64,000 nt of DNA, taken from assembly GCA_035544575.1 (NCBI GenBank), contig DATKEC010000117.1, forward strand, positions 11,865 to 75,864, in the 5' to 3' direction. The notes beneath the pieces were generated by a model. It was not told the DNA's origin, ran no database searches, and saw only the letters and a list, made by a program, of their open reading frames with translations. The DNA comes from Acidimicrobiia bacterium (GTDB lineage: Bacteria; Actinomycetota; Acidimicrobiia; Spongiisociales; ZC4RG35). Position numbers and translations under genes: made by a program. Positions 1-33,068 of this stretch are shown piece by piece (the first letter of the stretch is position 1; the number at the start of each line of letters is the position of its first letter).

Positions 1-537
1 GTCGACCTCGGGCGTTCGTCCACCAATCTTGAACTTCATCCCCACCATCCCGTGGCCCACGAAGGCCTCGATCTCCTGCTCGATCGAAGGAAATCCCGGC
101 TCTTCGTAATAGCCGCCGATCCCGATCATGGGGATCGCCGCCCGGAAGCCCCCCCACAATCTGAACAGCGGCTGCCCATGGAACTTTCCGAGCGCGTCCC
201 AAACGGCGGAGTCCACGCATGCGATCGCCTGCATCGCCAGTCTCCGGTCGCGCAGTTGGTCGCGCGTGATCACGCTCATCGCTTCCCAGATCTGCTCATA
301 GTCGAGAATGCTGATTCCGGTGACGAGCGGAATCAGTTCGCGAGAGATTATCTCTAGAACTTCGAGCTGTTCGTCACCGTCGGTATCCGCGTTATAGATC
401 TCGCCCACAACCCCATCGGTCGTACGCAACTTCGTGATGATGGTGCACCGATTCGGCATACTGTAGAAACTCCCCTTATACGTACGATCCAAGGGAACTC
501 GAATAGGTGTGGTCTCAATCGATTCGATCTCGAGCAT
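1..537 (-). CDS. Enolase superfamily (mandelate racemase/muconate lactonizing enzyme family) protein; partial, C-terminus lies beyond the window start.
   Basis: I translated the minus strand myself: ATG at 537..535 preceded by an AGGAGA Shine-Dalgarno. The N-terminus MLEIESIETTPIRVPLDRTY...GIGGYYEEPG...KFKIGG is typical of the MR/MLE N-terminal and barrel start. It is not in the ORF track because no stop falls in the window. Confidence 0.6.
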   Translation of the reverse strand, partial: MLEIESIETTPIRVPLDRTYKGSFYSMPNRCTIITKLRTTDGVVGEIYNADTDGDEQLEVLEIISRELIPLVTGISILDYEQIWEAMSVITRDQLRDRRLAMQAIACVDSAVWDALGKFHGQPLFRLWGGFRAAIPMIGIGGYYEEPGFPSIEQEIEAFVGHGMVGMKFKIGGRTPEVD

Positions 538-606
538 GCTGTCTCCTGGGTGCTTCGGTACTCGTTCACTGGACGGCTCAAGACCGACTCCGTCAGAACC
601 TCGGAT

Positions 607-2901
607 TCACGTTGGCCGGGGGGATTGGGGAAGAAGAAAGGGTTTCGGATCTGCGAATCGCTCGAGGACGTTTTGTGTGACTCGGGCGACATTGTTCTCA
701 TAGCGGTTGTGGGCCAGACTGCCCGACCAGGCGATCGATCCGACGGAGAAGACAGCCCCACCATCGTCGGTCTCGAAGAACACCATGTCCGCTCGGATGC
801 GATCAGGTGCGTCGTGAGCCACCGGCAGTCGGTCCGCTATCGACGTCAATGCGAGGTCGAAGATGTTCGAATGCCCCTCCGACGACGCCAGCACGACGGC
901 GTGTGACGGCGTTCCAAGCCCCGGATCGGCTCGGTCGATCTCATAGCCCGCGGCGCCATTCATCAAAAGGCCGAAGTCACCGATCACATCGTCGGGAACC
1001 CCTTCGAACACGAAGGCGGTACGTTCGTCGCTGTCGCGGCCGTCCCCCGTCCGACGCCGATAGCCGGCCGATTCGTCGAAACCCTGGGTGATGAACCCGA
1101 CGCCCGTGAGAAGATGCGGCGCTCGTCCCAGCCCGCTCCAAGTACCGGCCATCTCGCCCGTGAATGCGAGGTGACCCTGGGCGGCGTCAGCCGCCCAGAG
1201 CATGGGGGCGTCGGGACGCCGCACCTCGACCACGCCATGAATGCCAGGGTGGAATGCGATCCTGGCATAGAACCCGTTACCGCCGATGTACATCAGCCGC
1301 CCACCCGAACGGACGTGTTCGTCCACGGCGTCGAGCATCTTGGTGCTGACGTACTCGGGGTGTGAACCGGTCAGAACGACCCTGTATCCGGCGAGGGCCG
1401 AGATCCCTCCGCGATCGATGTCCTCGTCGGTGACCACGTCGTAGCTGACTCCAGTTTGTTCCAGCCACGCCACGATCAGCATGTCCTGGCAGAACTTGTA
1501 GATGCGACCTTCTGGTCTGAAGTTGGTGACCGGTTGGCGGAGCGTGGCGTGCACCACTGTGCTCCCGTCCGAATGAGTGTCGTACGTCGACAGCCCGAGC
1601 GGTTGGTCGAGCAACAAGAGGTCGGTGTCGTCGAGGACAGTCAGACGTCCCTGCATCAACTCGACGACCTGGGCTGTGACCCGCATCCTGAGGTTGGCGT
1701 AGGCGGCGTAGGTGGCAGTAGGGAGAACGAACACGACCTCGGATCGTGCCGCGGCGGCACGTACGACGAAGGGGACCCAGAACACCGCGTCGCCCGCTGT
1801 GAACCTGCCGGCGTAACAGCCGCTGGGCCAATCCTCGGGCACGACCAGTTCGATGGATGTGTCCCAGTCGGCGTCGAGGAGGTCATCGTCGTGAAAGTGA
1901 ATTGCGCCGTACTCCTCGGATCTGACAGTCCAGTCTGCCGACGCCCCCGACCAGTTGGACCCACCGACCGCGCGGGTCGGGAGATTGCACACTTCGCCGT
2001 GGAGTCCACTGGCAGACGCATCGAACACGGCTTCACCCGAGATACCGTTCGAGAAATCCCAGTCGCCGATCGCGGAGTCAGCATTCCGAGTTGGGCCGAG
2101 CTCGGCCACCGCCTCCACCTCTTCCCGATCGAGGGGCCGTCCGAAGAGACGGGGCCGTTCGATCCTCCCGTTGAAGCAGTCGCGGGGAACCTGGCGACCA
2201 CGCTCGTCGACGACGAGATCGGCAGCCACCACCACCGGGCCCTCACCGAAGCGCAAACCGGCTTGGGAAGGCTGCACCGACCACGCCCAACCGGCCGGCT
2301 CGTAACGCGCAGACGGCATAGTCCACACACCGAATTCGAGCTGGCGGTCGTCACAGCTCACGGACACGAACGACCACCTTCCGGCGGGGACGGCGAGGCC
2401 GCTGTCGACGAGAACGGGCTTTGAGCCGTCCGAGCTGTGGTTGAGCCACAACCGGCCTCCGACCAGCACGAGCCGGCAGTGCCCACCCCCAGCAGACGCA
2501 GTTCCGACGACGGTCTGGACGCTCGCGAGTTCGTGACTGGGATGGAGGGTGACGCCCCACGTGAACGCATCCACGTCGGCGAGAGCCGCCGATGGAGGGA
2601 CGCGGACATAGGAACCCCGGTCGATCGGCTGACGGACTGCGGGATATTCGCCTCCGACAGCCGAATCCAGCACCTCGAAGTCAAAGGCTGGGACGTCCGG
2701 ACCCGGGCCCACGTTTGGAGCTCGCAGGCGACCAACGGCAGCCTCGACCGTCGGAACTCCGTCACAACTGACTTTGAATCCGATGGTCTCGCCCGGGCGG
2801 ACACTCCTCCGATCGGCGTAGGCCATCACGATTGGACTCGTCACGGGTCCTCCAGTTCCACGCCGAAGATCTCTTTCCAGCGCGCCCGGAACACATGCCA
2901 T
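607..2901 (-). CDS. Large-subunit-like protein of an N,N-dimethylformamidase-type two-subunit amidase (DmfA2-like, ThuA/GATase1-like domain). The start may be the internal ATG at 2826 (MAYADRRS...).
   Basis: 764-aa ORF with segments such as VVLTGSHPEYVSTKMLDAVDEHVRSGGRLMYIGGNGFY that match the DMFase beta family as I remember it. It is preceded and translationally coupled by a roughly 110-aa small-subunit-like ORF. Confidence 0.5.
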   Translation of the reverse strand: MACVPGALERDLRRGTGGPVTSPIVMAYADRRSVRPGETIGFKVSCDGVPTVEAAVGRLRAPNVGPGPDVPAFDFEVLDSAVGGEYPAVRQPIDRGSYVRVPPSAALADVDAFTWGVTLHPSHELASVQTVVGTASAGGGHCRLVLVGGRLWLNHSSDGSKPVLVDSGLAVPAGRWSFVSVSCDDRQLEFGVWTMPSARYEPAGWAWSVQPSQAGLRFGEGPVVVAADLVVDERGRQVPRDCFNGRIERPRLFGRPLDREEVEAVAELGPTRNADSAIGDWDFSNGISGEAVFDASASGLHGEVCNLPTRAVGGSNWSGASADWTVRSEEYGAIHFHDDDLLDADWDTSIELVVPEDWPSGCYAGRFTAGDAVFWVPFVVRAAAARSEVVFVLPTATYAAYANLRMRVTAQVVELMQGRLTVLDDTDLLLLDQPLGLSTYDTHSDGSTVVHATLRQPVTNFRPEGRIYKFCQDMLIVAWLEQTGVSYDVVTDEDIDRGGISALAGYRVVLTGSHPEYVSTKMLDAVDEHVRSGGRLMYIGGNGFYARIAFHPGIHGVVEVRRPDAPMLWAADAAQGHLAFTGEMAGTWSGLGRAPHLLTGVGFITQGFDESAGYRRRTGDGRDSDERTAFVFEGVPDDVIGDFGLLMNGAAGYEIDRADPGLGTPSHAVVLASSEGHSNIFDLALTSIADRLPVAHDAPDRIRADMVFFETDDGGAVFSVGSIAWSGSLAHNRYENNVARVTQNVLERFADPKPFLLPQSPRPT

Positions 2902-3182
2902 TCGGCGGCGATGATGTCGTGGAACACGAACTCGTCGAGCCGTTCAGCCCGAAGCGGCTCGGATTCGGTGAATCGGGCAAGGACCCACTTCGTGTGTGGT
3001 TCGACCATCCAAAGGAAGTAGCTTCCGGGGATCGGACCTCCCCGCATGTAGTCGAGGAGTGCCTGCAAATCGGCAGAGTGCCGGCCAAACGGGTGGGACC
3101 GAAACTCCGCAACGAGGTCCTGGCGGCTGCCGTCGACCCCAGCCGGGATGACGCGTAGCGGTGGTCGGTTGTCCGTCGGCAT
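2841..3182 (-). CDS. Small-subunit-like protein (DmfA1-like) of the N,N-dimethylformamidase-type amidase.
   Basis: 113-aa ORF immediately upstream of the large subunit, on the same strand, abutting or overlapping it. Size and position fit the alpha/beta DMFase architecture. I cannot verify the family from sequence alone. Confidence 0.4.
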   Translation of the reverse strand: MPTDNRPPLRVIPAGVDGSRQDLVAEFRSHPFGRHSADLQALLDYMRGGPIPGSYFLWMVEPHTKWVLARFTESEPLRAERLDEFVFHDIIAAEWHVFRARWKEIFGVELEDP

Positions 3183-3284
3183 GCAACCGATTCTAGGCAG
3201 ACTGAGACCGTTCCTGGAAACGTTTTTCGGCTACTCTCACCAACTAGTTTCCAATCCGTCTTCGACGGCCATGGGAGGACTGGC

Positions 3285-4409
3285 ATGAAGATCAAAACGG
3301 TCACACCGATCTCGGTGGCCTACCCGGAGCCAAACGACAACGGAGCCACCCGCTACCTGACGCTGTGCCGGATCGAGGCAGAGGACGGAACCGTGGGGTG
3401 GGGCGAGTCTGTGACGATGTGGCCGGCCGTGTGCAAGGCAGTCGAGGCGCTGATCGACGGCTACGCGGAACTCATCATCGGCGCGGATCCGACCGACAAT
3501 GTCGCGCTGTGGCATGCGATGCGCGACCACGGTTGGTGGTACGGCCATGGAGGCGGATTCGTCTCATTCGCCATAAGCGCCATCGACATCGCACTCTGGG
3601 ATCTGCGGGGCCGAATCACCGGCCAGTCATTGATCTCGATGCTCGGTGGAGCCCGCCAGGAGCGCCTCCCGGTGGCGGCGAGCACTCACGCCTCACGCGG
3701 CGATCTGCACGAGGAGGTGGGTCTCTACGCGAGCTACATCGAGGCTGGATTCCACGGCGTGAAGGTCGGCTTCGGGAAACGAGGCGACGCCAAACTCGGA
3801 TACGAGATCGACCGTGACCTGGAGTTCGCTCGGCTGTACCGGGCAGCGGTCGGCCCGGAGCCATGGCTGATGATCGATCGAGGTCAATCGTTGCATTGGG
3901 ATCTCGACCACGCCGTACGCCTCACCCAGGGCATGGAGGAGTACGGCCTGCGTTGGATGGAGGAGCCCTTCGAACCGCATGAGACGTCGAACTACAGGAC
4001 CTACCGTGAACGCGTCTCGACCATGATCGGCGCGGGCGAGCGAGAGTGGGATGAGCGCGGGTATCGGCGGGTCATCGATTCGGGTCTGGTCGACGTGATT
4101 GGATTCGACCCGGGCAGGGCCCAAGGCGTCACCGGCGGGGTCAACGTGATACGACTCGTCGAGTCGGCAGGACTCTGGTTCAACGCCCACGCCTGGAGCA
4201 GCGCCATCGTCACGAGCGCCAGCGTCGCCCTCTCGGCCTCGACCAATCGGGCACTGCTGCTCGAACTGAAAGCCGAACAAAATCCGATGCAGCACGATCT
4301 CGTCACCAACCCTCTGTCGCACACCGATGGTTGGATCTCGCCATCCGGCGGCCGAGGACTGGGAATCGAGATCGAAGAGGCGATCGTCGAGAAGTACAGA
4401 TTCCGGTGA
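3285..4409 (+). CDS. Enolase superfamily (MR/MLE family) dehydratase/racemase, paralog 1.
   Basis: 374 aa with N-terminus MKIKTVTPISVAYPEPNDNGATRYLTLCRIEAEDGTVGWGES. Clearly paralogous to the gene at 42960..44093. GGAGGA RBS upstream. Confidence 0.8.
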   Translation: MKIKTVTPISVAYPEPNDNGATRYLTLCRIEAEDGTVGWGESVTMWPAVCKAVEALIDGYAELIIGADPTDNVALWHAMRDHGWWYGHGGGFVSFAISAIDIALWDLRGRITGQSLISMLGGARQERLPVAASTHASRGDLHEEVGLYASYIEAGFHGVKVGFGKRGDAKLGYEIDRDLEFARLYRAAVGPEPWLMIDRGQSLHWDLDHAVRLTQGMEEYGLRWMEEPFEPHETSNYRTYRERVSTMIGAGEREWDERGYRRVIDSGLVDVIGFDPGRAQGVTGGVNVIRLVESAGLWFNAHAWSSAIVTSASVALSASTNRALLLELKAEQNPMQHDLVTNPLSHTDGWISPSGGRGLGIEIEEAIVEKYRFR

Positions 4410-4433
4410 GCGCGCCCGTCTCGACGGGGCAGG

Positions 4434-5300
4434 TCACCGCTTGCGCCGATACGGGTTGAGAAGGTCGCTCAGGGTGTCACCGAGCAACGTGAAGATCAGG
4501 ACGGTCACGAATATCGCACTCCCTGCGCCGACCGCAATCCACGGGTTCATCGACAGCAGCGTCTTCCCGGTGCCAAGCATGCGTCCCCATGATGGGGTGG
4601 GCGGCTGAACGCCGAGCCCGAGGAAGCTGAGCGCTGCTTCCGTGAGGACGGCGGTGGCGAACGTCAGCGTGAACTGCACCGTCGTGATCGAGACCAGATT
4701 GGGCAGGAGCGAGCGGGCCATGATGTAAAGATGGCTACCCCCGAGCGCCCGCGCCGCGAGGACGAACTCACTGCTCCGCAAGGACAGGGTCACCCCGCGG
4801 ACGAGGCGGGCGAAGCGGGGAATCTGAACGACCCCGATCGCGATGATCGTGTTCCTCAGGTTCGGCCCGAGTACCGCGACCGTGGCCATCGCCAGGATGA
4901 TGGGGGGGAACGCGAGCAGACCGTCGGTGACACGCATCGTCACGGTATCGACCAGCTTGCCGAAGTAGCCGCTCGCGATCCCCAGCGGAACACCAAACGC
5001 CACCGCAATCGCCGTCGCTCCGAACCCGACGTAGAGCGAGATGCGCGATCCGAAGATCACACGCGAGAAGACATCACGGCCAATCTCGTCGGTACCCAGC
5101 CAAAATTCCGAAGACGGCAGGTCGACAGCGAACCCGACCACGTCGGTGGCACCGTAAGGGGCGAGAGCGTCGGCGAAGACGGCCAGGGCGAGCAGCCCGA
5201 GCGCTGCGACCATCGTGAACAGGTGGAGCTTGTTGCCTACAAGTGCACGCCAGCGCCGGGCGCGGGCGGGCGTTGCGGCGGCGGAGCTACTGAGGGTCAT
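4434..5300 (-). CDS. Dpp/Opp-type ABC transporter permease (DppC-like).
   Basis: The real start is the internal ATG at 5300, which forms an ATGA overlap with the upstream permease stop. The protein has multiple TM-like hydrophobic stretches and the binding-protein-dependent permease signature region. Confidence 0.8.
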   Translation of the reverse strand: MTLSSSAAATPARARRWRALVGNKLHLFTMVAALGLLALAVFADALAPYGATDVVGFAVDLPSSEFWLGTDEIGRDVFSRVIFGSRISLYVGFGATAIAVAFGVPLGIASGYFGKLVDTVTMRVTDGLLAFPPIILAMATVAVLGPNLRNTIIAIGVVQIPRFARLVRGVTLSLRSSEFVLAARALGGSHLYIMARSLLPNLVSITTVQFTLTFATAVLTEAALSFLGLGVQPPTPSWGRMLGTGKTLLSMNPWIAVGAGSAIFVTVLIFTLLGDTLSDLLNPYRRKR

Positions 5301-6244
5301 GAGCGCGCGATCCTTGGATCGAGCCATGAGTAGGCGAGGTCGACGACCAGGTTCACGATGACGAAGGCTGCGGCCGAGACCAGCACCGCGACCTGGACCA
5401 CGTCGAATGCCCGCGTGAGTATCGACTGGATCATCAACCAACCGAGTCCGGGCCAGGTGAAGATCTGTTCGATCACGACCATGCCCCCCACCATGAGGCC
5501 GAAACTCACGCCGACTTCGGTGATTAGGGGAATCGAGGCGTTGCGGAGTGCATGGCGGTAGTTGATCCGGCGCGACTCCAGCCCCTTGGCCCGGGCGGTC
5601 CTGACGTAGTCGGCGTGTAAGACCTCGAGCATGCCCGCCCGCATGAAGCGGGTCAGCCTGGCCGCAGTGACGGTCCCGATCGTGATCACGGGCAGGACGA
5701 GCTGGCTCAGGTGGCGAAACGGATCCTGGGAGAACGGAACGTAACCTCCCGGCGGGAGGATCGGTAGCAGCTCCGCAAAAACGAGCAGCAGCGCGATGCC
5801 CAACACATAGGTCGGCATACTGAAACCGAGGGTGGCCAGCACGCGCGCAACGTGGTCCATCCAGGTGCCTTCACGTATCGCAGAGACCATGCCCAACGGA
5901 ACGGCGATGACCACAGCGAGGACGATCGAGATCACCGCCAGCTCCAGCGTTCGTCCGAGCGCCGGAAATACGAGACCCGCCACTTCGGCTCCACCGTGCG
6001 TGATGGACGTACCCAGGTCCCCGCGCACCAGGTTGCCCATCCAGCGGAAGTATTGCTCGACGAGCGGATCATCCAGGCCAAGCTCCGCCCGCAACGCGGC
6101 GTACGCCTCAGGGGGCGCGTCGAACCCCAACGTCATCGCCGCCGGATCTCCGGGCACGATTCGGAAGATGACGAACACTGCTGTCGCGACTATCCACATC
6201 ACCAGGAGGCCCTGGAGCACCCGGCGGAGTAGGTAGCGGCGCAT
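5297..6244 (-). CDS. Dpp/Opp-type ABC transporter permease (DppB-like).
   Basis: 315 aa starting MRRYLLRRVLQGLLVMWIVATAVFVIFRIVPGDP, a typical DppB N-terminus. Confidence 0.85.
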   Translation of the reverse strand: MRRYLLRRVLQGLLVMWIVATAVFVIFRIVPGDPAAMTLGFDAPPEAYAALRAELGLDDPLVEQYFRWMGNLVRGDLGTSITHGGAEVAGLVFPALGRTLELAVISIVLAVVIAVPLGMVSAIREGTWMDHVARVLATLGFSMPTYVLGIALLLVFAELLPILPPGGYVPFSQDPFRHLSQLVLPVITIGTVTAARLTRFMRAGMLEVLHADYVRTARAKGLESRRINYRHALRNASIPLITEVGVSFGLMVGGMVVIEQIFTWPGLGWLMIQSILTRAFDVVQVAVLVSAAAFVIVNLVVDLAYSWLDPRIARS

Positions 6245-7278
6245 CAGGAGCCAGATCCTGCGTTGGGTGGGAGCGGGCCTCGACGGGTTCCGCGAGCCGC
6301 TTCAGGACCGGGGAAGTGGCAGGCGACTCGTTGGGTCATTCCCTGACCCTGTACAAGGACAGGATCCTCGTCGGCACAAAGATCGACCGCACGCCAGCAC
6401 CTCGTTCTGAAGCGGCAACCGCTGGGTGGTTGCAGCGGATTGGGGAGATCGCCCTCGAGGACTATGCGGGTGCGCTTGCCGCCATCCAACCGGTGCGAGG
6501 GCACTGCGGACAGGAGCGCGTTCGTGTACGGATGCTGCGGGGCCGTGAACACGTCATCCCTCGTGCCGATCTCCACGATCTTGCCGAGGTACATCACCGC
6601 AACCCGGTCGGACACCTGACCAACCACTGACAGGTCATGCGCGATGAACAGATACGCCAAACCGAGCTGGTCCTTGAGATCCGCCAACAGGTTGAGGATC
6701 TGGGCCTGGATCGAGACGTCGAGAGCCGAGACGGGCTCGTCCAGGACGATCAGGGCCGGCTGCAAGGCCAACGCGCGCGCGATCGCGATGCGCTGTCGCT
6801 GTCCGCCCGAGAACTCGTGTGGGTAACGATCCAACGCCGCGAGCGGCAGCTGCACCAAGTCGAGAAGTTCGGGTGCGCGCCGAGCCGCCTCAGCGCGCCC
6901 CAGGCCGTGGATGCGAAACGGCTCGGCGAGGATTGCCCGAACACGAAACCGTGGGTTGAGCGAGGCGTAGGGATCCTGGAACACGATCTGGAAGTCGCGA
7001 CGGACCGGGCGCATGTCCCCGTGATCCAGCTCGGTGATGTCTCGACCTCGAAAGAAGATGCGGCCCGCAGCCGGGTCGACGAGTCGCATGATCGTGCGGC
7101 CCAGCGTCGACTTCCCGCATCCGGACTCACCGACGAGTCCCACTGTCTCACCCTCGGCGATCGTGAGTGAGGCTGAATCGACAGCGGTCAAAACCGCTAC
7201 TCCGTCGCCCCCCTGCCTTCTGACTGTGTAGCGGGTCGTGACTGACTCCACCTCGAGCAGGGCTCGTGACCCGGTCAT
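6244..7278 (-). CDS. Dpp/Opp-type ABC transporter ATP-binding protein (DppF-like).
   Basis: Walker A GESGCGKST and the LSGGQRQR signature are present. A C-terminal oligopeptide-ABC extension is also present. Confidence 0.9.
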   Translation of the reverse strand: MTGSRALLEVESVTTRYTVRRQGGDGVAVLTAVDSASLTIAEGETVGLVGESGCGKSTLGRTIMRLVDPAAGRIFFRGRDITELDHGDMRPVRRDFQIVFQDPYASLNPRFRVRAILAEPFRIHGLGRAEAARRAPELLDLVQLPLAALDRYPHEFSGGQRQRIAIARALALQPALIVLDEPVSALDVSIQAQILNLLADLKDQLGLAYLFIAHDLSVVGQVSDRVAVMYLGKIVEIGTRDDVFTAPQHPYTNALLSAVPSHRLDGGKRTRIVLEGDLPNPLQPPSGCRFRTRCWRAVDLCADEDPVLVQGQGMTQRVACHFPGPEAARGTRRGPLPPNAGSGS

Positions 7279-8315
7279 CGCCCACCACCGGTGGCTGCAC
7301 CCGGGTCACGCAAGCGCTCCCCAGCCCATATGACAGCCTCGGCCACGTAGTGACACTCCGCACGATGTCCGTCCCCCACCGTGTGGAGGTTCGGCGCCTC
7401 TTCGGCGCACAGGGCGCGGTCCGATCCGATCGCACACCGCGGACGGAACGAACATCCCTCGAGCTCGGAGTCGAGCCGGGGCGGCTGTCCGGGAATGGAG
7501 TAGAGACGCCGCTGCCGCCCCTCGATAGATGGGAGCGAGGCGAGCAGACCAATCGTGTAGGGGTGGCTCGGTCGAAGGAAGATGTCCTCGATCGTCCCCT
7601 GTTCGACGATTCGTCCTGCGTACATGACCGCTATGCGATCCGCTACCTGCGCAACGAGGCCGAGATCGTGTGTGATGAGGACGGTGGCTGCTCCGGTCTC
7701 CGCCTTCGCCGCCATGAGCACGTCGAGTACCTGAGCCTGGATCGTCACATCGAGCGCAGTAGTCGGCTCGTCGGCGATGAGCAGCTTCGGTCGGTTGGCA
7801 ATGGCCATCGCGATCATCGCCCGCTGCCGCATTCCGCCCGAGAACTCGTGAGGGAACTGGTGGTAGCGGCGCTCGGGTTGGGGGATCCCGACGAGTGCGA
7901 GTAGCTCGATGGCGCGTGCCCGATGAAGGTCGTCGTCGATATGGCGTGCGTGGGTCCACATGGCCTCGCGCAGCTGCTCACCGACCTTGATCACGGGATT
8001 CAACGACGTCATCGGATCCTGGAACACGACCGCCACGTCGCTTCCGCGGATGGAACGGAGTTGGTCTGCATCGAGAGAGAGCAGGTCGCGGCCCTCGAAC
8101 AGAGCTCGTCCGGAGACGATCCGCGCCGGTGGAGAAGGGACGAGCCCGAGCAGGGAGAGCACGGTCACCGTCTTGCCCGAGCCCGACTCGCCCACGATCC
8201 CGACCATCTCCCCGGGAAAGACCGTGAAGGACACCCCGTTGACGGCGTTGACCGTCCGATTGTCGGACTCGAATCGGACGCGCAGGTCGTCCACTTCAAG
8301 TAGCGGTGTCGTCAT
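7275..8315 (-). CDS. Dpp/Opp-type ABC transporter ATP-binding protein (DppD-like).
   Basis: Walker A GESGSGKT and signature FSGGMRQR. It forms an ATGA overlap with the downstream ATPase. Confidence 0.9.
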
Positions 8316-8361
8316 CGGCTCACAGTCTCCGGCCGTGCTGCGGGTTGGTCATCCGTAGAGT

Positions 8362-8396
8362 CCGGGGTTTGGCACCGATTCGGCGCCAAACCCCGG
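8362..8396. promoter_or_regulatory. Strong GC-rich hairpin (about 16-bp stem, 1 mismatch, 3-nt loop) between the SBP gene and the first ATPase gene of operon 1.
   Basis: The sequence ccggggtttggcaccg att cggcgccaaaccccgg was read directly. No U-tract follows, so this is probably an intra-operon mRNA processing or stabilising element rather than an intrinsic terminator. Confidence 0.55.
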
Positions 8397-8408
8397 ACCC
8401 GGACCGGT

Positions 8409-9977
8409 TCAGCCGGACAACGATACGTTCGTCAGGAACAAATGACCCTGTGTGTGGGCGATGAGTCCCGCAACGGATGCGGCCGTCGTCACCGGCGAGA
8501 GTCGGCCGCCGAGCACGATCTCAGGCTGACCTTCCATCGCCATTGCTTGTAGCTCCAGAATGGCGTTCCGGTAATCCTCGTCGCTCGGCATGGAACGCGC
8601 CTCGGTGAGCAGGTCGTAGAACTCCGGCCGCTGATCGATCCACCCGAGCGCCTCGGTGAACAGTTTGTTGTACGGGTGCGAGAGCAGGTCGTACTCGTCG
8701 GGCTTCGGAACCATGGCGCACAGCGCGAGATCGAAGTTGCCGGCGTCGTCGCCCAACGTGCGTGCCACGTACGTCCCTACATCGAGAACGCTGATCGTGA
8801 TGTCGATCCCGACCTCGGCGAGTTGGCTCTGCACCGCTTGAGCCAGTGTCTCGAACTGGAACCCCAGGCCACACACGATCATCTCGCCGCCTTCGACTCC
8901 ATCGGAGAACCCGGCCTCTGCCACCAGCGCCTGCGCCGTCTCGAGGTCGCGCTCGTTGTAAGAAGCGGCATCGGCGTTGAAGAAGGCCGGGTTGGCCTCC
9001 ATCGGGTTCGACAACACCTGCATGAAGCCGAACAGGCTGCGCGAGAGCGCCTGCCGGTCGAGTGCGTTGCTGACTGCCTGTCGAAGCTCCTGATTGTCCC
9101 ACGGAGCACGACGCGTGTTGATGTGGAAGTGATACAGACCCGAGTTGAACCCCTCCGGAGGCGTCAGAATCTGAAGTCCGGCCTGCTGCAGGGTGGCGAT
9201 CTCTCCGAGCGGCGTGTCCGCCAGCACCTGAACCTCGTTCGTCCGGATCTGCAGGGACTGCACGGTTCCGTCGGGGACCGTGCGATAGATCACGCCGTCC
9301 AGGTATGGGAGGCCATCCTGCCAGTAGTCGGGATTCCGCTCGACTTCGACCTGTTGGTTCCGCTCCCAGGACACGAACTTGAACGGACCGGTGCCCACGG
9401 GTGTCTCGGCGAGGTCGATCGTCGTGTCTTGTGGTGAGATGTAGACGTCCACCATCGTGCTCAGCAGAACCCGATCAGGTTCTGAGAGACGGATCTCCAC
9501 GGTCCGATCGTCGACGGCGACAGTCTCCGTCACACGGGCCAGCAGCGGTGCGGTTCGACCCGCCTCCGGTTCTGTCGCCCGGCCCATCGAAGCCACAACG
9601 TCCTCGGCGTCGAACTCAGACCCATCGTGGAAGACGACGTCATCCCGCAGGTTGAACGTCCACACCAGACCGTCCGCGGATGCGGACCAGTCCGTGGCGA
9701 GGCTTCCCACGATTTCATAGCTCGTGAGATCGAACTCGACGAGGGTGTCGTAGATGTTCGTGATGATGTTCCGGTCGTTCGTCGAACCGAAACGGTTCGG
9801 GTGAAGACCCGTCGGGTCGGCCGACTGGGCGATGACCAGGACGCCACCCGCGGTCGGCTCGGACGGTCCCGATCCGGTCGTGGTGGTGGCATCGTCTTCG
9901 CCACCGACACTGCTGCAAGCAGTGACGATCATCGCCAACGCCAAGAGCAGGGCCATCGAAGCTCGTATCCGCTGCAC
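8409..9977 (-). CDS. ABC transporter substrate-binding lipoprotein, family 5 (DppA/OppA-like).
   Basis: 522 aa with an N-terminal signal peptide and lipobox (MIVTAC). It is the first gene of the operon. Confidence 0.85.
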   Translation of the reverse strand: MQRIRASMALLLALAMIVTACSSVGGEDDATTTTGSGPSEPTAGGVLVIAQSADPTGLHPNRFGSTNDRNIITNIYDTLVEFDLTSYEIVGSLATDWSASADGLVWTFNLRDDVVFHDGSEFDAEDVVASMGRATEPEAGRTAPLLARVTETVAVDDRTVEIRLSEPDRVLLSTMVDVYISPQDTTIDLAETPVGTGPFKFVSWERNQQVEVERNPDYWQDGLPYLDGVIYRTVPDGTVQSLQIRTNEVQVLADTPLGEIATLQQAGLQILTPPEGFNSGLYHFHINTRRAPWDNQELRQAVSNALDRQALSRSLFGFMQVLSNPMEANPAFFNADAASYNERDLETAQALVAEAGFSDGVEGGEMIVCGLGFQFETLAQAVQSQLAEVGIDITISVLDVGTYVARTLGDDAGNFDLALCAMVPKPDEYDLLSHPYNKLFTEALGWIDQRPEFYDLLTEARSMPSDEDYRNAILELQAMAMEGQPEIVLGGRLSPVTTAASVAGLIAHTQGHLFLTNVSLSG

Positions 9978-10066
9978 TAAGTACCTCCTCGGAGTGTCAA
10001 CCTCGGGTGTCGATGTCGGGCGACCGACGGTCAGTTGATGTCAGACCGATCACCCGCTGTGAAATC

Positions 10067-10087
10067 GGAATCGTGGGAAACGATTCC
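10067..10087. promoter_or_regulatory. Candidate operator: GGAATCG-n7-CGATTCC inverted repeat.
   Basis: The sequence ggaatcgtgggaaacgattcc lies in the 316-bp divergent region between the SBP gene and the CoA-transferase gene. Confidence 0.35.
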
Positions 10088-10186
10088 AACCGCGCCGACA
10101 ATAGCGACGCTCCGAGCTGGCCGTCAACACATCGGAGCGAGACACCGCAGACGGACGTCATCCAGCGCCCGTCTGCGCCACTCACT

Positions 10187-10202
10187 CCGGAATCGATTCT
10201 GG
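10187..10202. promoter_or_regulatory. Candidate operator: near-perfect 16-bp palindrome CCGGAATCGATTCTGG.
   Basis: Read directly from the sequence. Same motif family as the other boxes in this window. Confidence 0.4.
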
Positions 10203-10228
10203 CGTTGTCCGTTCGGCGATTGCTGGGA

Positions 10229-10270
10229 CTACGACCTCATCCTAGAAACGTTTCTAGGATGAGGTCGTAG
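10229..10270. promoter_or_regulatory. Perfect 42-bp palindrome (21 + 21) centred on AAACGTTT, ending 24 nt upstream of the CoA-transferase start codon. Probable operator.
   Basis: The sequence ctacgacctcatcctagaaac gtttctaggatgaggtcgtag was verified base by base with no mismatches. It creates two spurious mirror ORFs that both end in YDLILETFLG. Confidence 0.6.
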
Positions 10271-10293: not shown

Positions 10294-11556
10294 ATGAACC
10301 CCCCCACCGAGGACACTCGACCCCCTACGAGGCCAGCGCCCCTCTCCGACGTGCGTGTACTTGCAGTCGAACAGTACGGTGCGGGCCCTTTCGGCACTCT
10401 GCAACTCGCCGACCTCGGCGCCGAAGTCATCAAAATCGAGGATCCTCGTTCCGGCGGAGACGTCAGCCGCTACGTCCCGCCATTCCAGGACGGGGAGCAC
10501 AGTCTGTTCTTCGAGTCGTTCAACCGAAACAAGCGGAGCTTGGGCCTCGACATCTCCAACCCCGCCGGGCGCCGGGTGTTCGAAGATCTCGTCGCCGTCT
10601 CCGACGTCGTGTACTCCAACCTTCGCGGCGACGTCCCCGCCCGGCTCCGGCTTCGCTACGCCGACCTGGCGGACGTCAACCCGGCGATCGTCTGCGTCTC
10701 ATTGTCCGGATTCGGCATGACCGGACCCCGCGTGGCCGAACCAGGCTACGACCCGATTCTTCAGGCGCTGGCTGGGTGGATGAGTGTCACGGGCGACCCG
10801 GCCGGGCCGCCCACCAAATCGGGACTGTCGCTAGTTGATTATGCGGGCGGATACGTCGCCGCGATTTCACTACTCGCCGCGCTTCATGCCGCGCGGCGTG
10901 ACGGCATCGGCATGGACTGCGACGTCAGCCTCTACGACACCGCCATCAGCCTTCTCACCTACCCGGCGATCTGGTACCTCAACGGCGGACTCATACCCGA
11001 GCGCAAGGCGAACTCGGCTCATCCCTCCCTCATCCCTTTTCAGGCATTCGAGGCGGCAGACGGATGGCTCACCGTCGCTTGCGCCAAAGAGAAGTTCTGG
11101 CAGCGCCTCGTCGTCGTGCTCGGGCTACCGGAACTCACCACCGATCCCCGGTTTTCCGACTTCGACGCTCGGAGGGAACACGCAGCCAGCCTCGGACCGA
11201 TCCTCGAGGGAGCCTTTCGTACCGACACGGTCGCGGGGTGGGTTGATCGTCTGGCAGACGCCGGAGTACCCACCGCCCCTGTCCAGTCCCTCCCCGAGGC
11301 ACTGACGGACGCCCATACTCTCGCCCGCGACCTCATCGTCGAGACCGACCATCCACTGTTCGGGCCGATCCGCCAGGTCGCCAGTTCGGTCCGGGCAGGT
11401 AACTCGATCACGGATCACCGACCCGGACCCGCGCGCAACGAGGCGTCGGACTACGCCCTGTCCACGATCCTCGGCTATGACCAGCGGACCATCGCCGCGC
11501 TCACCGCGGAAGGAGCGTTCGGCGAGGTTTCCGCTGAGTCCAAAGACTGCCGATGA
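10294..11556 (+). CDS. Family III CoA-transferase (CaiB/BaiF family).
   Basis: 420 aa with N-terminus LSDVRVLAVEQYGAGPFGTLQLADLGAEVIKIE. GGATGGAG RBS upstream. Confidence 0.85.
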   Translation: MNPPTEDTRPPTRPAPLSDVRVLAVEQYGAGPFGTLQLADLGAEVIKIEDPRSGGDVSRYVPPFQDGEHSLFFESFNRNKRSLGLDISNPAGRRVFEDLVAVSDVVYSNLRGDVPARLRLRYADLADVNPAIVCVSLSGFGMTGPRVAEPGYDPILQALAGWMSVTGDPAGPPTKSGLSLVDYAGGYVAAISLLAALHAARRDGIGMDCDVSLYDTAISLLTYPAIWYLNGGLIPERKANSAHPSLIPFQAFEAADGWLTVACAKEKFWQRLVVVLGLPELTTDPRFSDFDARREHAASLGPILEGAFRTDTVAGWVDRLADAGVPTAPVQSLPEALTDAHTLARDLIVETDHPLFGPIRQVASSVRAGNSITDHRPGPARNEASDYALSTILGYDQRTIAALTAEGAFGEVSAESKDCR

Positions 11557-11636: not shown

Positions 11637-11684
11637 CATCCGAGCCCAGGGAGTTGCGTGCACAGCGGAGAAAACAACCCCACG

Positions 11685-12683
11685 ATGAAGGAAGTGGCGT
11701 CTCGCGCTGGCGTCGCGCTCTCCTCCGTCTCCCGAGTTCTCAACCACCATCCCGACGTGAGCGAACGCATGCGCCGGCGAGTTCTGAACGCGGTCGACGA
11801 CCTCGGCTATGAGCCGAACCTTGTCGCGTCGAGCCTGCGCCGCGGGTCGACCCATACGATCGGCTTCGTCGTCTCCGACATCTCCAACCCGCTGTTCGCA
11901 GACTTCACGAAGGGAGCGGGTGACCGGCTCCATGCCGCCGGCTATTCGATGGTGCTCACCAACGCCGGAAGCGACCCGGAACAAGATGAAGCGATGATCC
12001 GCCTCCTCCGCTGGAGGAGGGTGGACGGCCTGATCACGTCGCTCGCAGACGAGTCCCGCCCAGATACGATCGCCGAACTCCAGCGGATAGAAGTCCCCAT
12101 CGTTCTACTCGACCGGTTCGTCGACGAACTTCCGAATGCCTCTGTCATCAGTGCCGAACACGCCTCGGGGATGACAGAGGCGACGGCGCAGTTGCTCGCC
12201 CTCGGCCACCGCCGCATCGCCTTGATCTCCGGATCCCCCCGCATCCGGCCTCCGAACGAGCGGGTGGAGGGCTTCCGACGGGCATTCGACCGCTTCCGTA
12301 TCCCGTACCCATCCGACCTCGTGCGTCTGGGGAGCTTCTCGCCGGAGTTCGGGACACGTTCCACCACTGAATTGCTCGCCTTGCCCGAGCCGCCAACGGC
12401 GATCATCTCTGGTGGCAACTTGTTGCTGACGGGCGTGTTGCGAGCGTTGCGGAGCGCCGCGCTGCATCCGGGTCGGGACATCGCGATAATCTCCTGCGAC
12501 GACGTCGCGCTCGCGGAACTGCACACCCCGCCTATCACTGTGATCGCCCGCGACACGGTCCGAATGGGCGAGTTGGCAGCGGAGTTGATGCTGGAGCGCC
12601 TCGCATCCGAGGATGCTCCGCCCCGCGTCGAACGCGTGCCCACCACCGTCGTGATGCGCGAGTCGACTTTCCCGCTGAGGTAG
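11685..12683 (+). CDS. LacI-family transcriptional regulator. The ORF-track start at GTG 11658 is also possible.
   Basis: N-terminal HTH MKEVASRAGVALSSVSRVLNHHPDVSERMRRRVLNAVDDLGYEPNLVASSLR followed by a periplasmic-binding-fold sugar-binding domain. Confidence 0.85.
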   Translation: MKEVASRAGVALSSVSRVLNHHPDVSERMRRRVLNAVDDLGYEPNLVASSLRRGSTHTIGFVVSDISNPLFADFTKGAGDRLHAAGYSMVLTNAGSDPEQDEAMIRLLRWRRVDGLITSLADESRPDTIAELQRIEVPIVLLDRFVDELPNASVISAEHASGMTEATAQLLALGHRRIALISGSPRIRPPNERVEGFRRAFDRFRIPYPSDLVRLGSFSPEFGTRSTTELLALPEPPTAIISGGNLLLTGVLRALRSAALHPGRDIAIISCDDVALAELHTPPITVIARDTVRMGELAAELMLERLASEDAPPRVERVPTTVVMRESTFPLR

Positions 12684-14939: not shown

Positions 14940-14975
14940 GGTTCTCCTCTCGGTGCGGCGACTATAGCGACGGGT

Positions 14976-23606: not shown

Positions 23607-23620
23607 AAGGGGACGCTCCC

Positions 23621-31149: not shown

Positions 31150-32121
31150 CTAGAACCAGGCGGCCTTGTCGACCACGTTGAGGAGCGGTTCTCCCGCACC
31201 GAACCGTGAGGCGTTGTCGGCGAGCACGGCGAACCGTCGCTCGTCGACGTACGGCCCAGCAACGGCGACGTGCGGCGTGAGGAGCACATTGGACATGGCC
31301 CACAACGGATGTTCCGTCGGCAGGGGTTCCTCCTCGAATACGTCGAGCCCGGCACCGGCGATCTCTCCCCGCTCGAGCGCCGAGACCAGATCGTCCAGTC
31401 GCACTGTCATGCCTCTACCGATGTTCACGAGATGGGCTGTCGACTTCATCATCGAGAGCCGGCGAGCATTGAACATGCCTTCCGTCTCCGGGGTGTGGGG
31501 CACGGTCAGTACGACAAAGTCTGCCTCGGGGATCAGACGATCGAGCTCGGCCGGCGGCGCCACCTCGTCAACCACGGGTGATCCATCTGTCACTCGGGCG
31601 TCGGTGGCGATCACTCTCGATCCGAACGTCTTCATCATTCTGGCGATCTCCGACCCGATGCCGCCGAGGCCCACCACCAGCACCGTCGCCTCGGGCAAAT
31701 GCACGACACCCTCGGCAGTCCGAATGGGATCCCATCTCCCTCGAGCCTGTTCGAGGACGTAGCGTGGGAACCCTCGTGCCAGCGCCAGCACCATCGCCAC
31801 CGCATGAGTGGCGACATGGTCGTTGTAGATCCCGCGGAAGTTCGTGACGACCACGGGGTGGGCCACCAGCGCATCGAAGAAGAAGCCGGCAGGCGGTGCG
31901 GCGGCCGGAGCCTGCAGCCAGCTCAGCCGCCTCGCCGCTTCGAGCTGAGCCCTCGACAAGGTGCCATAGGCAGCTTCGGCGTCGGCCAGCGCGGCGATCG
32001 CCTCCGCGTCGGACTCGGCTACCACGACCGACACTTCGGGCAGCCCTTCGCTGATCTGTTCCGCCCACCGACGGGTCAGCTCGTCCTGCGGCGGAAGCAT
32101 GACCAGCCGGTAGCCGCTCAC
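31150..32121 (-). CDS. D-isomer-specific 2-hydroxyacid dehydrogenase family protein.
   Basis: NAD-binding and catalytic domains are present. ATGA overlap with the upstream PTE-family gene. Confidence 0.8.
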   Translation of the reverse strand: MSGYRLVMLPPQDELTRRWAEQISEGLPEVSVVVAESDAEAIAALADAEAAYGTLSRAQLEAARRLSWLQAPAAAPPAGFFFDALVAHPVVVTNFRGIYNDHVATHAVAMVLALARGFPRYVLEQARGRWDPIRTAEGVVHLPEATVLVVGLGGIGSEIARMMKTFGSRVIATDARVTDGSPVVDEVAPPAELDRLIPEADFVVLTVPHTPETEGMFNARRLSMMKSTAHLVNIGRGMTVRLDDLVSALERGEIAGAGLDVFEEEPLPTEHPLWAMSNVLLTPHVAVAGPYVDERRFAVLADNASRFGAGEPLLNVVDKAAWF

Positions 32122-33035: not shown

Positions 33036-33068
33036 CAGCTAGCCCCTCCTCTGGGGTCGAGTCCTCGG

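What the first reader, a model, noticed from the sequence alone, without database searches (positions are those of the whole stretch)
1..4409. Two-subunit N,N-dimethylformamidase-like amidase flanked by enolase-superfamily paralogs
A roughly 760-aa protein plus a translationally coupled roughly 110-aa upstream ORF reproduces the alpha/beta gene architecture of N,N-dimethylformamidase. That enzyme has only been characterised in a handful of methylotrophs and alphaproteobacteria, and its homologs of unknown substrate are widespread. Here it sits between two MR/MLE enolase-superfamily genes: a partial one at 1-537 and the gene at 3285. A third paralog lies at 42960. The divergent promoter also carries a regulon box at 3211-3230. 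The substrate of this amidase in a peptide or D-amino-acid catabolic island is unknown. It could be an N-formyl or N-acyl amide.
Basis: partly seen in the sequence, partly recalled or inferred. Interest (0 to 1): 0.6.

Follow-up and report, generated by a model that had tools for sequence, protein, structure and literature searches.

The report
Two-subunit DMFase-family iron amidase operon
This is a real two-gene (small plus large subunit) member of the N,N-dimethylformamidase family of iron amidases in an uncultured Acidimicrobiia bacterium; it almost certainly cleaves a natural, still unknown amide rather than the solvent DMF, and databases already recognise it at family level.

Summary
On the minus strand a 113-aa ORF (3182..2841) overlaps by 4 nt (GTGA) a 745-aa ORF (2844..607). 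A partial MR/MLE gene follows (537..1), and a second MR/MLE gene (3285-4409) is transcribed divergently.

- **Large protein:** it matches Pfam DMFA2_C (E 7e-86). It is about equally distant from the two solved relatives, Paracoccus DMFase and a Burkholderia N-acetyl-beta-Phe acylase. It keeps all six residues shown by mutagenesis to be essential in DMFase.
- **Small protein:** it is a distant but genuine homolog of the DMFase small subunit. The evidence is a profile E of 2.5e-8, a structure model whose only credible PDB match is that subunit, Pfam DMF_alpha on all listed homologs, and natural alpha-beta fusions.

The pairing is not special to this locus. About three quarters of family loci have it, both subunits have Pfam families, and NCBI already names this exact protein a DMFase-beta-family protein.

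The more useful result is the conserved, apparently LacI-controlled neighbourhood. It holds a Dpp-type ABC importer, two MR-type enolases, a 2,4-diaminopentanoate-dehydrogenase-like enzyme and RidA, and in relatives also a PTE lactonase and an SDR. There are no C1 or methylamine genes, and the DMFase gate Phe693 is Asp here. The substrate is unknown. This is a new member of a known kind, of moderate-to-low interest.

The parts
2841..3182 (-). Small (alpha) subunit gene, 113 aa, of the DMF_alpha family
   Evidence: ORF. Homologs are 56-96% identical and all carry PF26354 DMF_alpha. The profile hits only 6lvb_B, at E 2.5e-8. The AF2 model (pLDDT 89) has top fold hits 6lvv_B and 6lvb_B, TM 0.63, rmsd 2.1-2.4 A.
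607..2844 (-). Large (beta) subunit gene, 745 aa from GTG 2844. The longest ORF starts at ATG 2901; an alternative start is ATG 2826.
   Evidence: PF20254 DMFA2_C, E 6.8e-86. PDB 8huy E 2e-105 and 6lvb_A E 5e-104. Y399, Y440, H519, E521, N547 and E657 equivalents are all present. An identical 745-aa protein is annotated by NCBI.
2841..2844 (-). GTGA start/stop overlap between the small and large genes (translational coupling), preceded by GGAGGA
   Evidence: Sequence. The same NTGA overlap is possible in 21 family loci, including every member of the ortholog clade. Gene calls overlap by 4 nt in L002, L003, L085-L088.
1..537 (-). 5' part (179 aa) of the third operon gene, an MR-subgroup enolase-superfamily enzyme ('ENO_down', 371 aa in full)
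   Evidence: MR_MLE_N, E 3.8e-12. It is 93% identical to L004:3301-4416. The full gene, followed by a DAP_DH_C gene and a convergent RidA, is seen in L088, which is 99.985% identical to the window. The closest PDB entries are 3msy, 4h83 and 3no1 at E 4e-114; their entry names give only the family and no function.
3183..3284 (.). Divergent intergenic control region
   Evidence: Sequence. A conserved block lies upstream of the small ORF in the window, L002 and L004.
3215..3228 (.).
   Evidence: Related sites at 10075-10088, 10243-10256 (perfect palindrome TAGAAACGTTTCTA) and 42906-42919. 9 matches against 1.67 expected.
3190..3195 (-). -10-like hexamer TAGAAT, 7 nt upstream of the small-ORF ATG with no Shine-Dalgarno: possible leaderless transcript (inference)
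   Evidence: TATGAT in L002, TAGAAT in L004 at the same place. The strict sigma-70 scan finds no full promoter.
3285..4409 (+). Divergent MR-subgroup enolase-superfamily gene ('ENO_up', 374 aa)
   Evidence: MR_MLE_N and MR_MLE_C. The best named matches are acid-sugar dehydratases, all far below curated cutoffs. Orthologs sit next to the amidase genes in L002, L004, L005, L006, L085, L087, L090 and L091 despite rearrangements.
4434..9977 (-). Dpp/Opp-type ABC importer operon: SBP_bac_5 at 8409-9977, two ATPases, two permeases
   Evidence: Co-located with the amidase genes in L002, L003, L005, L086, L087, L089, L090 and L091.
10294..11556 (+). Family III CoA-transferase, preceded by operator-like sites at 10075 and 10243
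   Evidence: Same position in L002.
11658..12683 (+). LacI-family regulator, candidate binder of the boxes
   Evidence: Same position in L002. That it binds the boxes is inference.
42960..44093 (+). Third MR/MLE gene, a true paralog of ENO_up (52% identity), with an operator-like box at 42906-42919
32118..33845 (-). PTE-family hydrolase (32118-33035) and SDR (33069-33845): orthologs of the genes that directly follow the amidase genes in other genomes
   Evidence: 75% and 68% identity to the L085 PTE and SDR. Pfam. Context.

Best explanation
The two overlapping genes encode the alpha (113 aa) and beta (745 aa) subunits of a heteromeric metallo-amidohydrolase of the N,N-dimethylformamidase family.

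**Mechanism, by analogy with the Paracoccus enzyme.** The beta subunit carries a mononuclear Fe(III) held by two tyrosinates and one glutamate. Fe-bound water is activated by a nearby Glu, helped by a His and an Asn oxyanion contact, and attacks the carbonyl of a C-N amide bond. The alpha subunit packs on the catalytic domain, stabilises it and lines the substrate entrance. Coupled translation delivers the two chains together.

**Physiological role (inferred).** The enzyme cleaves a natural, polar amide, not DMF. The substrate is taken up by the adjacent Dpp-type ABC importer. It is cleaved in a LacI-controlled catabolic operon whose other enzymes work on the two halves. The amine-bearing product would go to the 2,4-diaminopentanoate-dehydrogenase-like enzyme and RidA. 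The alpha-hydroxy-acid or lactone-like acyl part would go to the MR-type enolases and, in relatives, to a PTE lactonase and an SDR.

**Shown versus inferred.** Shown: family membership of both subunits, conservation of all catalytic residues, gene overlap, and conserved synteny. Inferred: iron content, oligomeric state, regulation by LacI, the pathway logic and the substrate class.
For: - **Large subunit:** PF20254, 289 bits. PDB 8huy gives E 2e-105 and 6lvb_A gives E 5e-104.
- **Catalytic residues:** the equivalents of Y399, Y440, E521 (Fe ligands) and H519, N547, E657 are present in the window protein. They are invariant in 84 of 84 aligned family members. PMC7686228 describes them; mutants of all but Y399 were inactive.
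- **Small subunit:** profile-sequence E 2.5e-8 to 6lvb_B, the only hit. Fold match TM 0.63, probability 1.00, with the next hits at probability 0.12 or less. PF26354 DMF_alpha on all 120 listed homologs.
- **Physical association:** PMC7686228 reports that the large subunit alone is inactive. Natural alpha-beta fusions occur in L008, L042 and L089, and in many 864-911-aa proteins that are 52-56% identical.
- **Coupling:** a GTGA overlap that is conserved across the ortholog clade.
- **Context:** the operon continues with MR/MLE and DAP_DH_C genes, with RidA convergent. ENO_up and the Dpp-type ABC operon remain next to the amidase genes through rearrangements. PTE and SDR genes follow the amidase in L085-L087 and L089, and their orthologs are in the window.
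- **Shared control:** operator-like boxes lie upstream of four transcription units, and the block is conserved in L002 and L004.
Against: - No biochemical data exist for this clade.
- Identity to either characterised relative is only about 35-39%, so substrate cannot be transferred.
- The small subunit lacks a counterpart of the first ~36 residues of the Paracoccus small subunit, whose N-terminal helix wedges between the large subunits. The quaternary arrangement may therefore differ.
- The solved N-acetyl-beta-Phe acylase entries list only one chain type, so some family members may work without a small subunit. About a quarter of loci show no adjacent small ORF.
- None of the neighbouring enzymes reaches a curated equivalog cutoff, so the pathway logic is guesswork.
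- ENO_up may belong to a neighbouring sugar operon, as its position in L085 suggests.
Confidence: 0.8

Rival explanations
1. It is a genuine N,N-dimethylformamidase (EC 3.5.1.56) that hydrolyses DMF or N-methylformamide to formate plus dimethylamine or methylamine for C1 growth.
For: Both subunits belong to the DMFase families and every catalytic residue is conserved. JGI and NCBI pipelines name homologs 'N,N-dimethylformamidase'.
Against: - It is no closer to Paracoccus DMFase than to an N-acetyl-beta-Phe acylase.
- Phe693, the residue said to restrict DMFase to small formamides, is Asp here and in the whole ortholog clade.
- No dimethylamine, methylamine or formate-oxidation genes were found among about 55 ORFs scanned in the 64-kb window.
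- The conserved partners are an oligopeptide-type importer, enolases, an amine dehydrogenase and a lactonase.
- DMF is synthetic, whereas the family has at least 568 confirmed matches in one scan of 185,579 species genomes.
Confidence: 0.04
2. It is an N-acyl (beta-)amino-acid acylase like the Burkholderia N-acetyl-(R)-beta-phenylalanine acylase. It would deacylate an N-acylated amino acid, whose free amino acid is then deaminated.
For: - The best PDB hit is 8huy, aligned end to end: residues 25-751 against 10-748.
- The downstream DAP_DH_C-like dehydrogenase and RidA fit removal of an amino group from a released amino acid.
- The B. vietnamiensis homolog sits with an amino-acid ABC system, a D-amino-acid dehydrogenase and an alanine racemase.
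- M19 dipeptidases neighbour several homologs.
Against: - The E-value is essentially tied with DMFase.
- No locus retrieved is more than 42% identical to the acylase, so this is a separate lineage.
- The acylase entries contain no small subunit.
- The MR-subgroup enolases, PTE and SDR partners are not explained by simple amino-acid deacylation.

This rival is a special case of the best explanation rather than a contradiction of it.
Confidence: 0.2
3. The 113-aa ORF is not a subunit. It would be an unrelated small protein or a spurious ORF, and the large protein would act alone.
For: There was no hit in the local Pfam or NCBIfam copies and no direct phmmer hit to 6lvb_B. About a quarter of family loci lack an adjacent small ORF.
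Against: - The protein is conserved to 56% identity.
- It has a profile hit and a fold hit specific to the DMFase small subunit.
- Its homologs carry PF26354.
- It is fused in frame to the large subunit in several lineages.
- Its position and overlap are conserved.
Confidence: 0.03

Closest known systems
Paracoccus sp. DMF N,N-dimethylformamidase, alpha2beta2 (PDB 6LVB and related entries; PMC7686228)
   Same: - Two genes, with the small one upstream of the large one.
- The large subunit is homologous over its catalytic domain (E 5e-104).
- The Fe ligands Tyr/Tyr/Glu and the catalytic His, Asn and Glu are identical.
- The small subunit is homologous in sequence profile and predicted fold.
   Different: - Identity is about 35%.
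- The gate residue Phe693 is Asp.
- The small subunit is 19 aa shorter and lacks an alignable counterpart of the N-terminal wedge helix.
- The host is an Acidimicrobiia MAG, not a methylotrophic proteobacterium.
- The genomic context has no C1 genes. It has instead a Dpp-type importer, enolases, an amine dehydrogenase and RidA.
Burkholderia N-acetyl-(R)-beta-phenylalanine acylase (PDB 8HUY, 8I59, 8I5A)
   Same: It is the best full-length PDB match (E 2e-105, residues 25-751 against 10-748). It keeps the same six metal and catalytic residues. It shows that the family accepts N-acyl amino acids, not only formamides.
   Different: Identity is about 36%, so it is a separate lineage. The PDB entries contain a single chain type, with no small subunit deposited. 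Position 693 is Ser rather than Asp, and position 656 is Phe rather than Tyr.
Uncharacterised 'N,N-dimethylformamidase beta subunit family domain-containing protein' plus DMF_alpha pairs, widespread in Actinomycetota and Pseudomonadota
   Same: This locus is one of them. NCBI gives the identical protein that name. The alpha gene lies immediately upstream in about 70 of 91 copies examined.
   Different: The ortholog clade (at least 50% identity: L002-L006, L085-L091) is distinguished by its conserved partners (ENO_up, Dpp-type ABC, DAP_DH_C, RidA, PTE and SDR or ENO_down) and by Asp at the 693 position.

Membership tests
DMFase family (Pfam DMFA2_C + DMF_alpha; Paracoccus DMFase as type) | Large subunit matches the DMFA2_C catalytic-domain model above the curated threshold | tested here: met
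   PF20254: 289.4 bits against a cutoff of 27, residues 309-735 covering model positions 1-373 of 374.
DMFase family (Pfam DMFA2_C + DMF_alpha; Paracoccus DMFase as type) | 2-Tyr-1-carboxylate mononuclear Fe site (Y399, Y440, E521) | tested here: met
   All three ligands align identically (tYaaYan, lstYd, shpEy). The positions were fixed using the Y440A and E521A mutant chains 6lvd and 6lve. They are invariant in 84 of 84 sequences. Metal content itself is not testable here.
DMFase family (Pfam DMFA2_C + DMF_alpha; Paracoccus DMFase as type) | Catalytic His519, Asn547 and Glu657 (mutants inactive, PMC7686228) | tested here: met
   All three are conserved in the window protein and in 84 of 84 family members.
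DMFase family (Pfam DMFA2_C + DMF_alpha; Paracoccus DMFase as type) | Separate small subunit homologous to DmfA1 / 6LVB chain B | tested here: met
   A single-sequence search finds nothing. Profiles give E 3.2e-6 and 2.5e-8 with 6lvb_B as the only significant hit. The AF2 model matches 6lvv_B and 6lvb_B at probability 1.00 and TM 0.63. Homologs carry PF26354.
DMFase family (Pfam DMFA2_C + DMF_alpha; Paracoccus DMFase as type) | Small gene immediately upstream of the large gene, co-transcribed | tested here: met
   4-nt GTGA overlap. The same arrangement is found in most family loci. Co-transcription itself was not measured.
DMFase family (Pfam DMFA2_C + DMF_alpha; Paracoccus DMFase as type) | N-terminal helix of the small subunit wedging between the two large subunits | tested here: inconclusive
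   Alignments start at residue 37-38 of 6lvb_B. Residues 1-20 of the window protein have no predicted secondary structure, and the first ten have a mean pLDDT of 56.
Bona fide N,N-dimethylformamidase (EC 3.5.1.56) | Constricted aromatic pocket with Phe693 from the partner large subunit | tested here: not met
   The aligned residue is Asp in the window protein and its ortholog clade. Phe occurs in only 9 of 84 sequences. The other pocket residues could not be checked without coordinates.
Bona fide N,N-dimethylformamidase (EC 3.5.1.56) | Genomic link to dimethylamine, methylamine or formate utilisation | tested here: not met
   No such Pfam families were found among about 55 ORFs across the window, nor in related loci.
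Bona fide N,N-dimethylformamidase (EC 3.5.1.56) | Hydrolysis of DMF or N-methylformamide | not testable with these tools
   Needs an enzyme assay.
N-acetyl-(R)-beta-phenylalanine acylase type | Close sequence relationship to the characterised acylase | tested here: not met
   Identity is only about 36%. No retrieved locus exceeds 42%. Homologous, but not the same lineage.
N-acetyl-(R)-beta-phenylalanine acylase type | Activity on N-acyl beta-amino acids | not testable with these tools
   Needs an enzyme assay.
Enolase superfamily, MR subgroup (the flanking genes) | MR_MLE N- and C-terminal domains; metal ligands; Lys on strand 2 and Asp/His dyad | tested here: met
   Pfam domains are present. 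By inspection of the sequences, ENO_down has KFK, D, E, E, and D...H, and ENO_up has VKV, D, E, E, and FDPG...AHAW. Motif assignment rests on my knowledge of mandelate racemase, not on a structural alignment. No equivalog cutoff was reached.
LacI-family operator | About 14-bp palindrome with central CG near a promoter, and a cognate LacI gene nearby | tested here: inconclusive
   The site at 3215-3228 is an imperfect palindrome. The site at 10243 is a perfect one. Sites are enriched over shuffles and conserved in L002 and L004. A LacI gene lies at 11658-12683. Binding was not tested.

The most novel reading that the evidence does not exclude
This Acidimicrobiia clade may represent a third, natural substrate specificity of the Fe(III) Tyr2-Glu amidase family. 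It would be the entry enzyme of an undescribed catabolic pathway for an imported polar amide, such as an N-acyl amino acid or diamino acid, or an amide of an alpha-hydroxy acid or lactone. One speculative example of that substrate class is pantothenate (N-pantoyl-beta-alanine). The pathway would be completed by two MR-type enolases, a PTE lactonase with an SDR, a 2,4-diaminopentanoate-dehydrogenase-like amine dehydrogenase and RidA, all under a LacI repressor. Identifying the substrate would show what the DMFase family did before industrial DMF existed.
Probability: 0.45. Interest if true: 0.5.

Novelty: new member of a known kind. Interest (0 to 1): 0.3.

Why it matters
DMF is a man-made solvent, yet the DMFase fold and its unusual Tyr-Tyr-Glu iron site are widespread, and only two activities have been characterised. 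A clade with an intact active site and a conserved natural catabolic neighbourhood is a practical starting point. That neighbourhood (importer, enolases, amine dehydrogenase, RidA, lactonase) can guide the search for a native substrate of this enzyme family. It may also assign function to structural-genomics enolases such as the 3MSY/4H83 group.

The survey made here has one general result. The small subunit, reported in only 41 genomes by a KOfam-based survey (bioRxiv 10.1101/2021.03.18.435917), accompanies most large subunits and is sometimes fused to them. As a single locus, however, this is an already-annotated family member of unknown substrate.

Tried and rejected
- **Small ORF, direct searches.** The local Pfam-A, NCBIfam and PDB-sequence searches found nothing. 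Profiles, precomputed Pfam labels and a structure model were needed.
- **pAMI2 DmfA1.** Fetching pAMI2 (GQ410978) to obtain an annotated DmfA1 failed because the record is not in the collection.
- **Acylase literature.** Searches for the acylase ('beta-phenylalanine acylase', 'AJ110349') and for the PDB codes 3MSY, 4H83, 3NO1 and 3SJN returned nothing relevant.
- **Neighbour functions.** NCBIfam equivalog models could not name the enolases, DAP_DH_C, PTE, SDR, CoA-transferase, LacI or SBP. No cutoff was reached.
- **SBP ligand.** The PDB search with the SBP gave only generic Dpp, HbpA, GsiB and AgaA-type matches.
- **Promoter.** The strict sigma-70 and terminator scan of the divergent region found nothing, and no inverted repeat was detected there at the tool's thresholds.
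- **Rejected readings.** I rejected a spurious small ORF, a true DMFase, and a close ortholog of the Burkholderia acylase.
- **Weakened reading.** I considered that the enolase association is a general family trait. It is not: only the closest clade and a few other loci have it.
- **Pocket comparison.** The tools return no model coordinates, so I did not compare pocket residues beyond position 693. I ran no further search on the large subunit.

Full report
**1. What is in the sequence**

The minus strand of window 1-3182 carries three consecutive genes.

- A 113-aa ORF runs 3182..2841.
- A long ORF has its longest form starting at ATG 2901 (764 aa).
- The 5' 179 codons of a third gene run off the window at base 1.

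The small ORF ends ...GAC CCG TGA. The large frame reads ...CCC GTG ACG... at the same place. A GTG at 2844 therefore overlaps the stop by four bases (GTGA) and lies just after a GGAGGA. NCBI annotates a 100% identical protein of exactly 745 aa from an Acidimicrobiia MAG. That corresponds to this GTG start (P0268). An ATG at 2826 is an alternative start. Either way the two genes are packed tightly enough for coupled translation.

A public contig, L088, is 99.985% identical to window 1-6595. It shows that the operon continues past the window edge. The MR/MLE gene is 371 aa, followed by a 300-aa DAP_DH_C-family dehydrogenase, with a RidA gene convergent to it.

Divergently from the 102-bp intergenic region lies a complete 374-aa MR/MLE gene at 3285-4409.

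**2. The large protein**

It matches Pfam DMFA2_C at 289 bits, against a gathering score of 27. Its only PDB relatives are these two:

| PDB relative | E-value | Aligned region |
|---|---|---|
| N-acetyl-(R)-beta-phenylalanine acylase (8huy) | 2e-105 | nearly end to end |
| Paracoccus DMFase large subunit (6lvb_A) | 5e-104 | best stretch 240-754; catalytic domain re-searched |

The PDB also holds the Y440A and E521A mutant chains. I used these to fix residue numbering directly on the printed alignments.

The window protein has the equivalents of the Fe ligands Tyr399, Tyr440 and Glu521. It also has His519, Asn547 and Glu657. PMC7686228 describes all six, and mutants of all but Tyr399 were inactive. 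I aligned 84 sequences: the window protein, the two PDB sequences and 81 family members taken from fetched loci. All six positions are invariant.

The one described specificity element does vary. Phe693 comes from the partner subunit and is said to restrict DMFase to small formamides. It is Asp in the window protein and throughout its ortholog clade.

**3. The small protein**

Direct searches found nothing: Pfam-A local copy, NCBIfam, and phmmer against the PDB. It is nevertheless a real, conserved gene. Homologs of 56-96% identity exist. Four independent lines tie it to the DMFase small subunit.

1. Its homologs carry the precomputed Pfam family PF26354, named DMF_alpha.
2. A 9-sequence profile hits 6lvb_B at E 3.2e-6, and a 48-sequence profile hits it at E 2.5e-8. 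It is the only chain reported at E ≤ 1 in the second search.
3. An AlphaFold2 model (pLDDT 89) has the DMFase small-subunit chains as its only credible Foldseek matches. These show probability 1.00, TM 0.63 and rmsd 2.1-2.4 A over 88 columns. All other hits have probability 0.20 or less.
4. Several lineages encode the small and large parts as one polypeptide with a ~20-residue linker. Examples are L008, L042, L089, and many 864-911-aa proteins that are 52-56% identical to the window protein.

There is one difference. The alignments begin at residue 37-38 of the 132-aa Paracoccus chain. The first 20 residues of the window protein have no predicted secondary structure. The N-terminal helix that wedges between the large subunits in Paracoccus therefore has no clear counterpart.

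**4. How common is the architecture?**

One scan of 185,579 species genomes gave at least 568 confirmed relatives of the large subunit. In the loci fetched, a DMF_alpha-like ORF lies on the same strand directly upstream of about 70 of 91 large-subunit copies. An NTGA overlap is possible in 21 of them, including every member of the ortholog clade.

A profile search of 1.84 billion cluster representatives finds 697 DMF_alpha clusters at E ≤ 0.001.

A KOfam-based survey found the large subunit in 4.5% of complete genomes but the small one in only 41 genomes (bioRxiv 10.1101/2021.03.18.435917). The present data indicate that this was a sensitivity problem. The alpha/beta pairing at this locus is therefore typical of the family, not exceptional.

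**5. Context and likely role**

The window protein's orthologs are at least 50% identical. They come mostly from Acidimicrobiia or Actinomycetia MAGs, with one from an Azospirillaceae MAG. They keep a recurring set of neighbours even though gene order and orientation change.

- The ENO_up-type MR/MLE gene.
- A Dpp/Opp-type ABC importer with an SBP_bac_5 protein.
- A DAP_DH_C (2,4-diaminopentanoate-dehydrogenase-like) gene.
- RidA.
- Either ENO_down or a PTE-family hydrolase plus an SDR.

These are seen. The window itself contains orthologs of those PTE and SDR genes 30 kb away, at 75% and 68% identity. It also contains an ortholog of a second PTE type that neighbours the amidase in L003, at 76% identity.

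More distant family members do not share these neighbours. The association is therefore specific to this clade.

The enolases are MR-subgroup by their motifs and nearest relatives, which are acid-sugar dehydratases and cycloisomerases. None reaches a curated cutoff. ENO_down is about E-114 to the structural-genomics entries 3msy, 4h83 and 3no1, whose entry names give no function. ENO_up and ENO_down are only 26% identical. The copy at 42960 is a true paralog of ENO_up, at 52% identity.

About 55 ORFs across the window were scanned. They show three Dpp-type transporters, amidohydrolases, aminotransferases, a D-amino-acid-dehydrogenase-like flavoprotein, GGT and related genes. They show no dimethylamine, methylamine or formate-oxidation genes.

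**6. Regulation**

It resembles a LacI-family operator with a central CG. Related sites lie in three other places.

- Upstream of the ABC operon, at 10075.
- Upstream of the CoA-transferase gene, at 10243. This one is a perfect palindrome, TAGAAACGTTTCTA.
- Upstream of the third enolase, at 42906.

There are 9 matches against 1.7 expected by shuffling. A looser pattern gives 14 against 2.8. A LacI-family gene lies at 11658-12683.

The block AAAAACGTTTCCAG(G/A)AACGGTCTCAGTCTG...TA(G/T)(A/G)AT is conserved immediately upstream of the small ORF in the window, L002 and L004. It ends in a -10-like hexamer 6-7 nt before the ATG, with no Shine-Dalgarno. That suggests a leaderless transcript. This is an inference, because the strict sigma-70 scan finds no promoter.

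**7. Interpretation**

The safest mechanistic statement is as follows. This is an alpha/beta Fe(III) amidohydrolase that works like Paracoccus DMFase at the level of chemistry. It acts on a natural imported amide. That it is a true DMFase is unlikely, at about 4%. The reasons are the equal distance to an acylase, the Asp at the gate position, the absence of C1 genes, and a conserved non-C1 context.

The substrate class is not determined. The partners suggest two products. One would carry an amine, removed by the DAP_DH_C enzyme and RidA. The other would be an alpha-hydroxy-acid or lactone-like moiety, handled by the MR enolases, the PTE and the SDR. An N-acyl amino or diamino acid, or an amide of a hydroxy acid, would fit. 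Any specific compound is speculation.

**8. Verdict**

The novelty is modest. The large protein is already named at family level by NCBI, and newer Pfam releases cover both subunits. The architecture is the family norm. What remains open, and is worth an experiment, is the native substrate of this well-defined clade.

Noticed in passing
L008:~7645-10256; L042:13180-15762; L089:10001-12736; proteins P0281-P0305 and others: Natural in-frame fusions of the DMF_alpha domain to the large subunit through a ~20-residue linker, 844-911 aa in total (a partial one is 1039 aa). They are common in a sister clade that is 52-56% identical to the window protein. This is Rosetta-stone evidence that the two chains form one enzyme.
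   Followed up: partly
window 3183-3195 (minus strand), and L002:9983-10000, L004:650-663: A -10-like TAGAAT or TATGAT lies 6-7 nt upstream of the small-subunit ATG with no Shine-Dalgarno. This suggests a leaderless mRNA for the first gene, while the second gene has GGAGGA plus a GTGA overlap.
   Followed up: partly
window 32118-33845 (-) and 45740-46756 (-): A PTE plus SDR pair, and a second PTE, are 68-76% identical to genes that sit directly beside the DMFase-family genes in other genomes (L085, L003). In this genome the presumed pathway is split over more than 30 kb. The first pair is in an operon with a 2-hydroxyacid dehydrogenase (31150-32121) and a gamma-glutamyltranspeptidase (29476-31122).
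   Followed up: partly
window 10075-10088, 10243-10256, 34887, 36488/36501 (tandem), 39064, 42906, 46836 and others: LacI-operator-like 14-mers with a central CG are enriched across the window (14 against 2.8 expected). This suggests one or more LacI-type regulons spanning this catabolic region.
   Followed up: partly
window 4434-9977; 17928-~23600; 52131-57752: There are three separate Dpp/Opp-type ABC importers (SBP_bac_5) within 64 kb. With them are several amidohydrolases, a class III and a class IV aminotransferase, a D-amino-acid-dehydrogenase-like flavoprotein (41545-42810), a D-Ser-dehydratase-like protein (26494-27765), an arylmalonate-decarboxylase or Asp/Glu-racemase-like protein (28723-29469) and a P450 (48621-49925).
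   Followed up: no
window 57819-59150 (-): A second DAP_DH_C-family gene, 33% identical to the one linked to the amidase in L085, sits next to the third ABC system.
   Followed up: no
window 45731-47482, 22661-25225, 13926-15338, 607-2901: Longest-ORF artefacts typical of high-GC DNA. The Pfam domains occupy only the C-terminal part (for example PTE at residues 252-577 of 583, and Amidohydro_3 at 364-829 of 854). The true starts are well downstream of the listed ORF starts.
   Followed up: no
L088:6059-7174 (equals window 537..1 extended); PDB 3msy, 4h83, 3no1: The operon's enolase is a close relative (E 4e-114) of structural-genomics structures whose entry names give only the family and no function. 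This operon context could help assign one.
   Followed up: no
L001 (B. vietnamiensis G4 plasmid pBVIE01) 4585-7226: An annotated 'hypothetical protein' of 132 aa upstream of the 'large subunit of N,N-dimethylformamidase' is a DMF_alpha homolog, 43% identical to the window's. Its neighbours are an amino-acid ABC system, a D-amino-acid dehydrogenase and an alanine racemase.
   Followed up: partly
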